This document shows positions 20,690 through 22,720 of a DNA stretch of 24,000 bases, one piece after another. The notes under the pieces were generated by a model. The model had not been told where the DNA came from, searched no databases, and saw only the letters and a list, made by a program, of their open reading frames with translations. Position numbers and translations under genes: made by a program. The DNA is taken from positions 92,113 to 116,112 of the forward strand of contig JAVHVE010000001.1 in the NCBI GenBank assembly GCA_032160705.1, written 5' to 3'. Within the stretch, counting starts at the first letter, position 1, and each line of letters opens with the position of its first letter. The DNA is from Acidobacteriota bacterium (lineage in GTDB: Bacteria; Acidobacteriota; Blastocatellia; Pyrinomonadales; Pyrinomonadaceae).

Positions 20690-22720
20690 ATGCGACCCAT
20701 CAAACATGCCGAGAAAGGCTTAACCCTCTTTGCGCGGGGTTTATTCAGCACCATTCAGTCAGTCAATAGGTTCAAGCCCAATCCGTCTTTTACCCCCAAG
20801 TGGTCTGACAAGCCGCTGCTGAAATCCTGGCAGAAGTCTAAGCCGACCCTGGGCTGGCCGCGTACGACCGACAGTCTCTGTCCCAACTGCGTCATCGAAG
20901 CGCGCGAAGAGATTTTAAGCGGCAAAAAGGATGTCTCGGTTCTGATTAACGAAAAGGTCGGCGAGATTAAAGCACAGATCATCGAGCGCGATAACGAAAT
21001 CTGGATGATTAAGGATTGCCCCGTGCATGGCCACTTCGAGGACATGATGGCGATTGATGCGAAGTTTCTCAATCACATCGAAAAGATGTTTCCGGGGCGC
21101 GACATTCAGGCGCACAACGACGAGAAGCTTCACAACCACGGATCAAGCACGGTCAAGTATGGTCGCGGCGCAGTTTTGACTGTTGACCTGACCAATCGCT
21201 GCAACATGATGTGCGACCCTTGCTTCATGGACGCCAATCAGGTCGGCTTCGTGCATGAATTGAGCTTTGACGACATCAAAGAGATTCTCGACAACGCGAT
21301 CACCATCAAGCCGCGCCGCCAGATGTCCGTGCAGTTTTCAGGCGGCGAGCCGACGATCTCTCCGCACTTCATCGAATCCATCAAGTATTCGCGTAAAGTC
21401 GGCTACAACTCGGTTCAGTGCGCGACCAACGGCATTGAGTTCGCCAAGAGCAAAGAGTTTGCTAAAGAAGCCGCCGAAGCGGGACTTCGCTACGCCTATC
21501 TACAGTTTGACGGCATTGGCAACGACGCGAACTCGCATCGTCAGGTCGGCAATCTCTTCGACGTGAAGCTGCGCGCGATTAACAACCTGCACGAAGCGGG
21601 CGTTGAGATCGTGCTTGTGACCACACTCGTCAACGGCATCAACAACGATCAGGTTGGCTCGATCATTCGTTTCGCGCTCGACAATCCGAAGAAGATTGCT
21701 TTTCTTTCGTTCCAGCCGGTTTCATTCACCGGGCGCGACGAGGAGATTACGGAGCAGCGCCGCTTGCAGCAGCGCTACACCCTGTCACACCTCGCGCACG
21801 ACGTGAAGGATCAGGTCGGCATCACCGAGCCCACGCGCGATTGGTTCCCGCTCTCTCTGATGGGCGCATTCGCGGACTTCGCAGACCTCGTGCATGGGCC
21901 TGAGGCCGAATGGGGACAGGTCTCCTGCGGCTGCCACCCGAACTGCGGCGTCGGCACTGCCGTGATGATTGATAAAGAAACCAAAGAAATGAACCCTGTG
22001 CCGGAGTTTTTGAATATTCCGGGGCTCGTCAAAGACATGCAGAAGATCACGGACGCTGCGCGCGGCAAGTGGACTTCAAACATTATGATGGGACTGACGC
22101 TGCTCAAGCACTACAATCCTTACAAGTCGCCGACAAACTTCACGCTGTACGAGTTGTTCAAGAAGTTCGATAAATCGTTCGGCCTGACCGGCAAGAACTA
22201 CGGCAAGGTTGAAGGTGATCGCACGAAGGATGACATCGAGATGCGTCGCGCAGATCGCTGGAACTTCCTCTTCATCGCGGGCATGTGGTTTCAGGATTTG
22301 TTCAACTACGACTTCCGCCGCACAGAAATGTGCATCATCCCTTACGGCACGCAGGAAGGCGAAATCTCCTTCTGCGCTTACAACACAGGCATCGGCTGGC
22401 GCAACATCATCGAGAACATGCACCAGAACGCGACCGTCGCGAAGTGGTATCAGGAGCATGGCCGCCACGAGATTTTTGCCAAGGGCAAGGAAGTCTCGCT
22501 CGACGAAGTCGGGCACGGTTTGAAGCTCAACGAGATTGACCTGCAACGCCCGAACAAGCCTGAGATGGAAGGGCCGAAGACGGCTCATGAAGAGGCTCAG
22601 ATGATGAAGAAACTCTACCAGGAGATGGTCTTGAAGAAGGCCGACATCAAGGTAGACGCTCCCGTGCAGATCAAAGGCTTGAGTCGTAAGAAAGAGACAG
22701 AGGCCTCGCCGGTAGCTTAA
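20690..22720 (+). CDS. Radical SAM enzyme of the tetraether lipid synthase (Tes / GDGT-MAS; formerly annotated 7,8-dihydro-6-hydroxymethylpterin dimethyltransferase) family
   Basis: N-terminal rubredoxin/zinc-ribbon-like pair CPNC (aa 64-67) ... CPVHG (aa 110-114). Radical SAM CX3CX2C in TVDLTNRCNMMCDPCF (C171/C175/C178, nt 21200-21223). GGE SAM motif VQFSGGEPT. Additional Cys clusters VSCGCHPNCGVG and CIIPYGTQEGEISFCAYN suggest auxiliary Fe-S sites. The CDS call is firm. The family call comes from remembered architecture. Confidence 0.85.
   Translation: MRPIKHAEKGLTLFARGLFSTIQSVNRFKPNPSFTPKWSDKPLLKSWQKSKPTLGWPRTTDSLCPNCVIEAREEILSGKKDVSVLINEKVGEIKAQIIERDNEIWMIKDCPVHGHFEDMMAIDAKFLNHIEKMFPGRDIQAHNDEKLHNHGSSTVKYGRGAVLTVDLTNRCNMMCDPCFMDANQVGFVHELSFDDIKEILDNAITIKPRRQMSVQFSGGEPTISPHFIESIKYSRKVGYNSVQCATNGIEFAKSKEFAKEAAEAGLRYAYLQFDGIGNDANSHRQVGNLFDVKLRAINNLHEAGVEIVLVTTLVNGINNDQVGSIIRFALDNPKKIAFLSFQPVSFTGRDEEITEQRRLQQRYTLSHLAHDVKDQVGITEPTRDWFPLSLMGAFADFADLVHGPEAEWGQVSCGCHPNCGVGTAVMIDKETKEMNPVPEFLNIPGLVKDMQKITDAARGKWTSNIMMGLTLLKHYNPYKSPTNFTLYELFKKFDKSFGLTGKNYGKVEGDRTKDDIEMRRADRWNFLFIAGMWFQDLFNYDFRRTEMCIIPYGTQEGEISFCAYNTGIGWRNIIENMHQNATVAKWYQEHGRHEIFAKGKEVSLDEVGHGLKLNEIDLQRPNKPEMEGPKTAHEEAQMMKKLYQEMVLKKADIKVDAPVQIKGLSRKKETEASPVA

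What the first reader, a model, noticed from the sequence alone, without database searches (positions are those of the whole stretch)
20690..22720. Bacterial homologue of archaeal tetraether lipid synthase (Tes / GDGT-MAS): candidate enzyme for membrane-spanning (brGDGT-type) lipids
Several features match the architecture reported for the archaeal radical SAM tetraether synthase, which joins the lipid tails of two diether lipids (archaeol) to make GDGTs:
- an N-terminal CPxC...CPxHG metal-binding module
- the CX3CX2C radical SAM site
- the GGE motif
- extra Cys clusters (SCGCHPNCG; C...FC)

Homologues in Acidobacteria have been proposed, but to my knowledge not biochemically proven, as the source of bacterial membrane-spanning lipids (iso-diabolic acid, brGDGTs). 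Those lipids underpin widely used palaeoclimate proxies.

The gene here is monocistronic, with its own putative promoter and a strong terminator. At 676 aa it carries N- and C-terminal extensions, including a Lys/Glu-rich tail.
Basis: partly seen in the sequence, partly recalled or inferred. Interest (0 to 1): 0.7.

Follow-up and report, generated by a model that had tools for sequence, protein, structure and literature searches.

The report
Acidobacterial tetraether-synthase-like radical SAM gene
This gene from a soil acidobacterium (family Pyrinomonadaceae) encodes a clear relative of the archaeal enzyme that welds two lipid tails into a membrane-spanning lipid, so it is a credible but unproven candidate for making the bacterial lipids used as palaeoclimate proxies; the field has already flagged this candidacy.

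Summary
It is a full-length homologue of archaeal tetraether synthase Tes/GDGT-MAS: PDB 7TOL scores 2e-63 at 32% identity, and it is the only full-length fold match.

It keeps the radical-SAM cluster, the SAM contacts, the rubredoxin-like site, the C-terminal auxiliary-cluster ligands, Met439 and Tyr459. It lacks the N-terminal auxiliary [4Fe-4S] cluster, scores 323 bits against NCBIfam's 450-bit Tes cutoff, and sits in a bacterial clade separated from canonical Tes with 100% bootstrap support.

This "long" subfamily is 65-98% identical across Acidobacteriota subdivisions 1, 3, 4 and 6 and some Gemmatimonadota MAGs. It has invariant ligands, a basic amphipathic N-terminal extension and a charged C-terminal tail, but no conserved lipid-gene neighbours.

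Best reading (about 0.55): a peripheral-membrane radical SAM enzyme that couples the terminal carbons of two iso-C15 chains to make iso-diabolic-acid-type membrane-spanning lipids.

The idea was published in 2022, and reviews up to 2026 still call bacterial homologues untested. This is a new member of a known candidate family. The terminator hairpin is real but has a weak U-tract; the promoter is only a consensus match.

The parts
20586..20614 (+). Sigma-70-like promoter match TTGACT-17-CATAGT, 76 nt upstream of the ATG
   Evidence: 9 of 12 consensus positions match. The region holds 4 such matches against 1.9 +/- 1.6 in shuffles, so this is not significant. It is a lead only.
20675..20683 (+). 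Ribosome-binding site GGAGAAGGA, 6 nt before the ATG
   Evidence: Read directly from the sequence.
20690..22720 (+). Tes/GDGT-MAS-like radical SAM protein, 676 aa, of the 'long' acidobacterial subfamily
20690..20857 (+). Subfamily-specific N-terminal extension (aa 1-56). It consists of an amphipathic helix at aa 2-26, then a nearly invariant Trp/Lys/Pro-rich segment (FTPKWSDKPLLKSWQKSKPTLGWPR). Net charge is +9. It is inferred to be a membrane-interface anchor.
   Evidence: highest hydrophobic moment in the protein (0.65), and no transmembrane segment; helix 2-26 with pLDDT about 85; conservation across orthologues. The extension is absent from MJ0619.
20858..21049 (+). Rubredoxin-like mononuclear metal site C64-x2-C67-x42-C110-x2-H113 (aa 57-120)
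   Evidence: Pfam Zn_ribbon_HMPTM scores 8e-13. C110/H113 align to C33/H36 of GDGT-MAS. The ligands are invariant in 82 orthologues. The spacer is 42 residues against 20 in MJ0619.
21050..21187 (+). Cys-free linker (aa 121-166) occupying the position of the N-terminal auxiliary [4Fe-4S] domain of GDGT-MAS. It carries a conserved His-rich loop, AHNDEKLHNHGSS.
   Evidence: C73/C77/C80 of MJ0619 align to gap/H150/S153. 81 of 82 orthologues have no Cys in this stretch. H148, H150, G151 and S153 are invariant.
21188..21676 (+). Radical SAM core (aa 167-329) with C171-x3-C175-x2-C178 (nt 21200-21223) and the GGE motif at aa 218-220. The SAM-contact residues Q342, S345 and R349 lie just beyond it.
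   Evidence: Pfam PF04055 scores 9.6e-21. The residue mapping is, and the residues are invariant.
21902..22426 (+). C-terminal auxiliary-cluster and lipid-pocket domain (aa about 405-579). C419, C548, C562 and M532 correspond to C338, C455, C470 and Met439 of GDGT-MAS, and Y552 to Tyr459. There is an extra C413-x-C415.
22427..22717 (+). C-terminal extension (aa 580-676). It has a conserved ATVAKWYxEHGRHEIFA segment, then a variable Lys/Glu-rich tail containing a recurring KLYxEMVL helix.
   Evidence: 17 K/R and 16 D/E in 97 residues; helix 632-646; conservation.
22749..22792 (.). Strong hairpin between the convergent Tes-like and DUF433 genes. It is probably a shared (bidirectional) terminator, with a weak U-tract.
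   Evidence: sequence; dG -32.8 kcal/mol, z = -5.6, 0 of 200 shuffles as stable. The terminator scan did not report it.

Best explanation
The gene encodes a peripheral-membrane radical SAM enzyme of the Tes/GDGT-MAS family. It most likely joins the terminal (omega) carbons of two iso-branched C15 chains on glycerolipids from opposite leaflets, producing iso-diabolic-acid-based membrane-spanning lipids. In subdivision 4 Acidobacteria these occur ester-bound and as glycerol monoethers.

Proposed mechanism, by analogy with GDGT-MAS:
1. The C171/C175/C178 [4Fe-4S] cluster reductively cleaves SAM.
2. The 5'-deoxyadenosyl radical abstracts a hydrogen from a terminal methyl held in a hydrophobic tunnel.
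3. The substrate radical is parked as a C-S bond on the C-terminal auxiliary cluster (C419/C548/C562, with labile M532).
4. A second SAM generates a radical on the second chain, which attacks that carbon to form the Csp3-Csp3 bond. Two SAM are used per bond.

What is shown: homology, conservation of every ligand and SAM contact needed for these steps, loss of the surface N-terminal [4Fe-4S] cluster, and phylum-wide purifying conservation.

What is inferred: the substrate, the product, membrane docking through the basic amphipathic N-terminal extension, and electron entry through the rubredoxin-like site without the N-terminal cluster.
For: Homology to GDGT-MAS:
- PDB GDGT-MAS 7TOL scores 2e-63 over query residues 92-566, with 31.9% identity by BLASTP.
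- The NCBIfam Tes model is the best hit and aligns end to end, 60-579 against 2-483 of 486.
- Foldseek of the AF2 model gives 7TOM/7TOL at 4.5e-22. The next hit, MoaA at 1.8e-5, covers only the radical-SAM core.

Residue mapping:
- The radical-SAM cysteines, F106, Q268, S271, R275, C338, C455, C470, Met439 and Tyr459 of GDGT-MAS are all conserved.
- They are invariant in 82 orthologues.

Distribution and selection:
- Orthologues 65-91% identical over the full length occur in Pyrinomonadaceae/Blastocatellia, Vicinamibacterales, Acidobacteriaceae/Terracidiphilus, Bryobacterales and Solibacteraceae. These match the subdivisions (1, 3, 4, 6) reported to make iso-diabolic acid.
- Branches in this clade are very short, which indicates strong constraint.

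Support from the literature:
- The iso-C15 terminus is structurally identical to the phytanyl terminus.
- Edaphobacter aggregans, which makes brGDGTs, has a single Tes homologue at 32% identity and E = 4e-61. That is the signature of this long type, not the canonical type.
- An Edaphobacter MAG protein is 84% identical to the subdivision 1 long-type query.
- Mss, the other known coupling enzyme, was not found in Acidobacteria.

Membrane association: the N-terminal extension is the most amphipathic segment and carries a +9 net charge, and there is no transmembrane helix.
Against: - No bacterial Tes homologue has been tested experimentally.
- The N-terminal auxiliary [4Fe-4S] cluster is missing.
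- The score is below the curated equivalog cutoff, and the clade is separate from all characterised Tes.
- No lipid-biosynthesis neighbour exists in the window or is conserved across 81 loci.
- Sahonero-Canavesi et al. found Tes homologues in only 3 of 14 iso-diabolic-acid-producing acidobacterial genomes and suggested an alternative pathway.
- Every close hit I recovered is a MAG or metagenome protein. None carries the name of a cultured, lipid-profiled isolate.
- Koribacter and Solibacter carry a canonical-type homologue (42% and 40% identity) that could be the real coupling enzyme.
- The AF2 model is only moderate (pLDDT 62), so pocket geometry could not be examined.
Confidence: 0.55

Rival explanations
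1. It is a Tes-family lipid enzyme, but with a different reaction or substrate from iso-C15 tail-to-tail coupling. Examples are intramolecular macrocyclisation, coupling of other chains, or another radical modification of membrane-spanning lipids. The intermolecular coupling would then be done by the canonical-type Tes homologue or by an unknown enzyme.
For: - The clade is distinct from canonical Tes with 100% bootstrap support.
- It has a different cofactor complement and extra domains.
- S. usitatus carries both a canonical homologue (Acid_5929) and a long one (Acid_2410), which suggests the two are not redundant.
- Archaeal paralogues already differ in product: MA_1114 gives only trace macrocyclic archaeol.
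- The family has diversified further. The Terriglobus-type sister clade has lost the C-terminal cluster cysteines.
Against: - All residues tied to the Tes coupling chemistry are retained and invariant.
- E. aggregans apparently makes brGDGT with only a long-type-like homologue.
- No alternative product is suggested by gene context.
Confidence: 0.22
2. It is an accessory or largely dispensable paralogue. Iso-diabolic acid in Acidobacteria is made by an unrelated, still unknown pathway, and this protein's role is something else in the membrane or unknown.
For: - Tes homologues were detected in only 3 of 14 iso-diabolic-acid producers, and the authors proposed convergent evolution of another pathway.
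- No named cultured isolate appeared among close hits.
- Terriglobus roseus, which belongs to subdivision 1 (a group reported to make iso-diabolic acid), carries a homologue lacking the C-terminal cluster.
Against: - Identity of 65-98% over 670 aa across several classes, with invariant catalytic residues, argues for an important conserved activity.
- The family is very abundant in soil metagenomes, with clusters of up to about 2,100 member sequences.
- The published survey used stringent thresholds close to this subfamily's scores (about 30-32% identity), so some copies may have been missed.
Confidence: 0.15
3. It is not a lipid enzyme at all. It could be a pterin (class D) radical SAM methyltransferase as JGI annotates it, a TrsS-like selenoprotein-system enzyme, or a cofactor or RiPP maturase.
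For: - JGI names many orthologues '7,8-dihydro-6-hydroxymethylpterin dimethyltransferase'.
- NCBIfam TrsS is the second-best hit at 211 bits.
- The weaker hits are NirJ/AhbC/AhbD, MoaA (not a SPASM enzyme) and SPASM-type maturases.
Against: - The pterin annotation derives from MJ0619 itself. Lloyd et al. could not reproduce that activity and showed the protein to be the lipid synthase with a hydrophobic tunnel.
- TrsS scores 211 bits against a 490-bit cutoff and covers only residues 91-377.
- NirJ, MoaA and the SPASM maturases match only the radical-SAM core, at 75 bits or less.
- No precursor peptide, cofactor gene or selenium gene lies nearby.
Confidence: 0.05

Closest known systems
Archaeal tetraether synthase Tes / GDGT-MAS (MJ0619, PDB 7TOL/7TOM; MA_1486; Maeo_0574)
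   Same: - Same family and overall fold: 2e-63, 32% identity, unique full-length Foldseek hit.
- Rubredoxin-like CX2C...CX2H site.
- Radical SAM CX3CX2C cluster and SAM contacts.
- C-terminal auxiliary cluster ligands with the labile Met and the conserved Tyr.
   Different: - No N-terminal auxiliary [4Fe-4S] cluster; a Cys-free His-rich loop sits in its place.
- A 42-residue rather than 20-residue spacer in the rubredoxin-like site.
- A 56-aa basic amphipathic N-terminal extension and a 97-aa C-terminal extension.
- An extra CxC before the first C-terminal-cluster cysteine.
- 323 bits against the 450-bit equivalog cutoff.
- A separate clade.
- The presumed substrate is an iso-branched fatty acyl or alkyl chain on G3P lipids, not a phytanyl chain on G1P ethers (inference).
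Uncharacterised acidobacterial 'Tes homologues' already named in the literature: S. usitatus Acid_2410 (Q025C7, 714 aa, 30.1%, 4e-62) and the single E. aggregans homologue (32%, 4e-61)
   Same: Their length and BLAST statistics against MA_1486 match this long subfamily. Solibacteraceae orthologues are 700-713 aa, and the window protein scores 31.9% and 1e-68 against MJ0619. They have been proposed for the same role in brGDGT synthesis.
   Different: I could not retrieve those two sequences, so orthology is inferred from length and scores and was not aligned. The window protein comes from Pyrinomonadaceae (subdivision 4), a group in which cultures yielded iso-diabolic acid and its glycerol ether but no brGDGTs.
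Canonical-type bacterial Tes homologues (S. usitatus Acid_5929, 545 aa, 40%; Ca. Koribacter versatilis, 42%)
   Same: Same family, and also found in Acidobacteria. They have been proposed for the same reaction.
   Different: They are about 500-545 aa and much closer to archaeal Tes. By their scores they appear to belong to the clade that retains C73/C77/C80/His and scores 430-584 bits on the Tes model; that placement is inferred, since I did not have their sequences.
Terriglobus-type sister subfamily (T. roseus WP_014786616, 624 aa)
   Same: It is 41% identical and shares the N-terminal extension, the rubredoxin-like site, the radical SAM core and the lack of an N-terminal cluster.
   Different: It has also lost the three C-terminal cluster cysteines and Tyr459, so it cannot use the Tes C-S intermediate chemistry in the same way.
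Membrane-spanning lipid synthase Mss (Thermotoga maritima, Thermoanaerobacter ethanolicus)
   Same: It is a radical SAM enzyme shown to couple fatty acid tails into diabolic acids. It is a functional analogue, with a Tes-like catalytic architecture reported from models.
   Different: It was not detected as a Tes homologue by BLAST. It is restricted to anaerobes and was not found in acidobacterial genomes. I did not compare sequences here.

Membership tests
Tes / GDGT-MAS (tetraether lipid synthase) | Radical SAM CX3CX2C cluster plus SAM-binding residues (GGE; F106, Q268, S271, R275 of MJ0619) | tested here: met
   C171/C175/C178, G218-G-E220, F179, Q342, S345 and R349 are present and invariant in 82 orthologues. 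R210 aligns to Q285; the alignment is uncertain there.
Tes / GDGT-MAS (tetraether lipid synthase) | N-terminal rubredoxin-like mononuclear Fe site CX2C...CX2H | tested here: met
   C64, C67, C110 and H113 are present. Pfam Zn_ribbon_HMPTM scores 8e-13. The ligands are invariant. The spacer is 42 residues rather than 20.
Tes / GDGT-MAS (tetraether lipid synthase) | N-terminal auxiliary [4Fe-4S] cluster (C73, C77, C80 and a conserved His) | tested here: not met
   These residues align to gap/H150/S153. There is no Cys at aa 114-170 in 81 of 82 orthologues, whereas the motif is present in 15 of the 16 canonical representatives and MJ0619 placed in that clade.
Tes / GDGT-MAS (tetraether lipid synthase) | C-terminal auxiliary [4Fe-4S] cluster with labile Met439, plus the strictly conserved Tyr459 | tested here: met
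   C419, C548, C562, M532 and Y552 align to C338, C455, C470, M439 and Y459, and are invariant. This is sequence-level only; cluster binding was not shown.
Tes / GDGT-MAS (tetraether lipid synthase) | Score at or above NCBIfam NF045702 equivalog cutoff (450 bits) | tested here: not met
   The protein scores 323.4 bits and its relatives 299-414. Canonical representatives score 432-584.
Tes / GDGT-MAS (tetraether lipid synthase) | Phylogenetic placement within the clade holding characterised enzymes | tested here: not met
   A neighbour-joining tree of 38 sequences over 479 columns puts canonical Tes with MJ0619 against the bacterial long group with 100% bootstrap support. This was NJ only, with no outgroup.
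Tes / GDGT-MAS (tetraether lipid synthase) | Full-length fold similarity to 7TOL/7TOM | tested here: met
   Foldseek gives E = 4.5e-22 and TM 0.57 (normalised to the target), and no other full-length hit. The model quality is moderate: pLDDT 62, pTM 0.66.
Tes / GDGT-MAS (tetraether lipid synthase) | Catalyses Csp3-Csp3 coupling of lipid tail termini | not testable with these tools
   This needs expression or in vitro assay. The literature states that bacterial homologues are unconfirmed.
Tes / GDGT-MAS (tetraether lipid synthase) | Genomic linkage to lipid biosynthesis genes (as MA_1486 sits next to ferredoxin and GGR) | tested here: not met
   The neighbours are a Tad pilus cluster, SLT/LysM, vWA and DUF433. 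No neighbour is conserved beyond the family level in 81 loci. This is not a strict family requirement.
TrsS radical SAM (seleno)protein | Score at or above NF045646 cutoff (490 bits) over the full length | tested here: not met
   It scores 211 bits and covers residues 91-377 only.
Mss (bacterial membrane-spanning lipid synthase) | Sequence homology to T. maritima / T. ethanolicus Mss | not tested
The literature reports no mss homologues in acidobacterial genomes and no Tes homologues in the Mss organisms.

The most novel reading that the evidence does not exclude
[quoted passage not shown] The subfamily has no N-terminal [4Fe-4S] cluster, a basic amphipathic anchor and a C-terminal tail. It would work with a reduced cofactor set (two [4Fe-4S] clusters plus one mononuclear site). 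It would be functionally distinct from the canonical Tes-type copy that a few species also carry. If so, earlier surveys that lumped the two types together, or used thresholds near 30% identity, mis-estimated which bacteria can make these proxy lipids.
Probability: 0.35. Interest if true: 0.75.

Novelty: new member of a known kind. Interest (0 to 1): 0.45.

Why it matters
brGDGTs and their iso-diabolic acid building blocks underpin widely used temperature and pH proxies, yet the coupling enzyme in Acidobacteria, their best-established source, remains unproven.

A marker gene would let producers be mapped in soils, lakes and sediments. This analysis shows that 'bacterial Tes homologues' are at least three sequence types with different metal-cofactor sets: canonical, long, and Terriglobus-type.

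The long type is the one conserved across iso-diabolic-acid-producing subdivisions and abundant in soil metagenomes. That sharpens which gene to test and which to count in environmental surveys. The gene itself, however, is an expected orthologue of candidates already named in the literature.

Tried and rejected
- **Linking the subfamily to named cultured producers.** Two further homologue searches, with Solibacteraceae and Acidobacteriaceae orthologues as queries, and two cluster look-ups returned only MAG or metagenome proteins. I could not retrieve Acid_2410 or the E. aggregans protein for alignment.
- **Supplements.** The supplement of Sahonero-Canavesi et al. (Table S21) is not held. The Zeng et al. 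supplements contain no per-taxon list of acidobacterial homologues. Sinninghe Damste et al. 2014 is not held. Chen et al. 2025 (GCA) is known only from citations.
- **Conserved-neighbour analysis.** Across 81 loci I found only family-level synteny (Tad pilus genes upstream; SurE, PCMT and DedA downstream) and no lipid genes.
- **Rfam.** No RNA family, including any riboswitch, appears anywhere in the window.
- **Rejected functions.** TrsS, NirJ/Ahb, MoaA and the SPASM maturases are all far below their cutoffs or cover only the core. The pterin methyltransferase annotation was superseded by Lloyd et al..
- **AF2 model.** The permitted alignment was shallow (identity 65% or more), giving pLDDT 62. 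That is adequate for a fold match but not for pocket or cluster geometry.
- **P0141.** This 40%-identical representative has lost the CX3CX2C motif, so it was excluded as degenerate.
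Full report
**Observation.** The window holds an ATG-initiated ORF at 20690-22720 on the + strand, encoding 676 aa, exactly as reported. A GGAGAAGGA ribosome-binding site lies 6 nt upstream. All quoted motifs are present: C64-P-N-C67 ... C110-P-V-H113-G, C171-x3-C175-x2-C178, G-G-E220, S-C413-G-C415-H-P-N-C419-G and C548 ... 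F-C562. Pfam finds a Radical_SAM domain at aa 167-329 (9.6e-21) and the 'HMPTM N-terminal zinc ribbon' at aa 57-120 (8e-13).

**Regulatory signals.** The gene is separated by 333 nt from the upstream vWA-domain gene and converges on a DUF433 gene on the opposite strand, so a monocistronic unit is plausible. A strong hairpin lies between the convergent genes at 22749-22792 (dG -32.8 kcal/mol, z = -5.6). Only AUUUCU follows it, and the simple terminator scan missed it. The 'promoter' is a 9/12 consensus match that is no more frequent than in shuffled sequence. No Rfam element occurs in the window.

**Family assignment.** The best NCBIfam hit is 'tetraether lipid synthase Tes' (NF045702), aligned end to end (residues 60-579 against model positions 2-483 of 486). 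It scores 323 bits, below the curated 450-bit equivalog cutoff. TrsS is second at 211 bits against a 490-bit cutoff, and the remaining hits (NirJ/Ahb, MoaA, SPASM maturases) match only the radical-SAM core. Against solved structures, the only strong hit is GDGT-MAS from M. jannaschii (7TOL) at 2e-63 over residues 92-566, with 31.9% identity. An AF2 model built from 33 orthologues is of moderate quality (pLDDT 62, pTM 0.66). It nevertheless finds 7TOM/7TOL as the only full-length structural match, at E = 4.5e-22, against 1.8e-5 for MoaA, which covers only the core.

**Cofactor sites.** Lloyd et al. (PMC9433317) describe four metallocofactors in GDGT-MAS:
- a rubredoxin-like Fe site (C9, C12, C33, H36);
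- an N-terminal auxiliary [4Fe-4S] cluster (C73, C77, C80, His);
- the radical SAM cluster;
- a C-terminal auxiliary [4Fe-4S] cluster with labile Met439, next to the strictly conserved Tyr459. This cluster captures the substrate radical as a C-S intermediate.

I mapped these onto the window protein using the HMMER alignment, checking the numbering offset with C33/H36:

| GDGT-MAS site | Window protein |
|---|---|
| Rubredoxin site | C64, C67, C110, H113 |
| Radical SAM cluster | C171, C175, C178 |
| SAM contacts | F179, Q342, S345, R349 |
| C-terminal cluster (C338, C455, C470, M439) | C419, C548, C562, M532 |
| Tyr459 | Y552 |
| N-terminal cluster (C73, C77, C80) | gap, H150, S153: absent |

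The segment at aa 114-170 contains no cysteine at all. In 82 orthologues every retained ligand is invariant, and 81 of the 82 have no cysteine in that segment. A conserved His-rich loop (AHNDEKLHNHGSS) occupies the place of the missing cluster.

**Organism and distribution.** The closest proteins, at 88-98% identity over the full length, are from Pyrinomonadaceae (Acidobacteriota subdivision 4). NCBI names them simply 'radical SAM protein'. JGI names them 'pterin dimethyltransferase' or occasionally 'tetraether lipid synthase'. A scan of one genome per GTDB species found at least 592 relatives. The best 80, at 65-91% identity over about 670 aa, span Pyrinomonadaceae/Blastocatellia, Vicinamibacterales, Acidobacteriaceae/Terracidiphilus, Bryobacterales, Solibacteraceae and six Gemmatimonadota MAGs. 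Some 90%-identity clusters hold up to about 2,100 metagenome sequences.

**Gene context.** No gene neighbour is conserved beyond the family level. About 15 Pyrinomonadaceae loci share the upstream block (Tad pilus cluster, SLT/LysM, vWA), and about 19 share SurE, PCMT and DedA downstream. A relative with 90% identity has different neighbours, and no locus shows lipid genes.

**Subfamily structure.** I compared the protein with one representative per 50%-identity cluster; 586 proteins in that library score E <= 1e-30. Three ligand patterns appear:
- Canonical proteins of about 500-550 aa carry all four sites. They score 432-584 bits on the Tes model.
- The window's 'long' type lacks the N-terminal cluster.
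- A third type has also lost the C-terminal cluster cysteines and Tyr459. It is represented by Terriglobus roseus WP_014786616 (624 aa, 41% identical).

A neighbour-joining tree (38 sequences, 479 columns, 100 bootstraps) separates canonical Tes, including MJ0619, from a bacterial group with 100% support. Inside that bacterial group the long type is a tight, short-branched clade and the Terriglobus type is its sister.

**Subfamily-specific additions.**
- An N-terminal extension with a confident helix at aa 2-26 (pLDDT about 85). It has the highest hydrophobic moment in the protein, a net charge of +9, and a nearly invariant Trp/Lys/Pro-rich segment.
- A C-terminal extension with a conserved WYxEHGRHEIFA segment and a charged tail.
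- No transmembrane segment is predicted. I infer peripheral, interfacial membrane binding.

**Literature.**
- Zeng et al. 2022 found 456 bacterial Tes homologues and proposed them for brGDGT synthesis.
- They report 42% and 40% identity homologues in Ca. Koribacter versatilis and Ca. Solibacter usitatus. They report a single 32%-identity homologue (E = 4e-61) in Edaphobacter aggregans, a cultured brGDGT producer.
- Halamka et al. list two S. usitatus homologues: Acid_5929 (545 aa, 40.2%, 1e-139) and Acid_2410 (714 aa, 30.1%, 4e-62). By length and scores I infer that Acid_2410 and the E. aggregans protein belong to the long type. I could not align them.
- Sahonero-Canavesi et al. found no Mss in Acidobacteria and Tes homologues in only 3 of 14 iso-diabolic-acid producers, and suggested another pathway.
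- Iso-diabolic acid occurs in subdivisions 1, 3, 4 and 6. In subdivision 4 it is abundant as a glycerol ether, without detected brGDGTs.
- Papers from 2025-2026, including a review from August 2026, still state that bacterial Tes homologues are only bioinformatic predictions. A 2025 GCA paper, not held here, is cited as linking a Tes homologue to iso-diabolic tetraesters in K. versatilis.

**Interpretation.** The most likely function (about 0.55) is Tes-like radical coupling of the terminal carbons of two iso-C15 chains to give iso-diabolic-acid-type membrane-spanning lipids. [quoted passage not shown]

Supporting this:
- The catalytic apparatus is completely conserved.
- The iso-C15 and phytanyl termini are identical.
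- GDGT-MAS can bind ester lipids.
- The phyletic match to iso-diabolic-acid-producing subdivisions is good.
- E. aggregans appears to carry only this type.

The missing surface cluster most likely alters electron delivery rather than chemistry; this is inference.

Against it:
- There is no experimental test.
- There is no informative gene context.
- The 3-of-14 survey result stands.
- No named isolates appeared among my hits.
- A canonical-type copy exists in the two best-studied producers.

The rivals are a different lipid reaction (0.22), an accessory role with an unrelated true synthase (0.15), and a non-lipid function (0.05).

**Novelty and verdict.** The candidate role is already published, so this is a new member of a known candidate family.

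What this analysis adds is a three-way split of 'bacterial Tes homologues' by cofactor pattern. It also identifies the long type as the phylum-wide, highly conserved one. Interest is moderate at 0.45: it bears on an important open question, but the field has already flagged this gene family, and nothing here is decisive without lipid biochemistry.

Noticed in passing
window 4495-15703 (+): A complete Tad/Flp pilus gene cluster: A24 prepilin peptidase, RcpC/CpaB, secretin, a TadG-like gene, two TadE genes, a TadZ/CpaE-like ATPase, the TadA/CpaF ATPase, TadB, TadC and a TPR TadD-like gene. Together with the four genes after it, this block lies upstream of the Tes-like gene in about 12-15 Pyrinomonadaceae MAGs.
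   Followed up: partly
window 18475-19227 (+): A 250-aa secreted protein with no Pfam match that contains an internal duplication of a roughly 60-aa unit (LTNxxVIxLVxAGFxExxIIxxIxxxPxxFDLxPxxLxELxRxxVSExIIxAM). It is conserved upstream of the Tes-like gene in about 12 relatives.
   Followed up: no
window 21050-21187 (aa 121-166 of the protein): A conserved His-rich loop, AHNDEKLHNHGSS, sits where GDGT-MAS has its C73/C77/C80/His cluster motif; H148, H150, G151 and S153 are invariant. It may bind a different metal or simply be structural. The AF2 confidence is low there.
   Followed up: partly
P0131 (Terriglobus roseus DSM 18391, WP_014786616), P0144, P0179: A sister subfamily keeps the radical SAM and rubredoxin-like sites but has lost the three C-terminal cluster cysteines and Tyr459. 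It occurs in T. roseus, a cultured subdivision 1 acidobacterium from a group reported to make iso-diabolic acid. What it does is unexplained.
   Followed up: partly
L036, L038, L039, L041, L043, L048 (Gemmatimonadota MAGs); L045, L050, L052, L031 (other labels): Long-type orthologues at 68-72% identity occur in six Gemmatimonadota MAGs, and in single MAGs labelled Acidimicrobiia, Saccharimonadales, Betaproteobacteria and Clostridia. This could reflect horizontal transfer, mis-binning or additional producers. In the tree the long-type clade splits into two subclades that do not follow taxonomy.
   Followed up: no
window 22749-22792 and 22830-23060 (-): The strong hairpin lies between the Tes-like gene and a convergent 76-aa DUF433 ORF (a family often found in toxin-antitoxin-like pairs). 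It may terminate both transcripts. In most relatives the downstream genes are instead S21, SurE and PCMT, so this end of the locus looks rearranged.
   Followed up: partly
window 1041-3182 (+): A sigma-54-dependent activator (535 aa) is followed by a short ORF of 174 aa that matches only the first 96 positions of the 221-position M50 peptidase profile. It is possibly truncated.
   Followed up: no
P0141 (metagenome, 561 aa): A 40%-identical relative has lost the CX3CX2C radical SAM motif while keeping the C-terminal cysteines. It is possibly a pseudo-enzyme or an assembly artefact.
   Followed up: no
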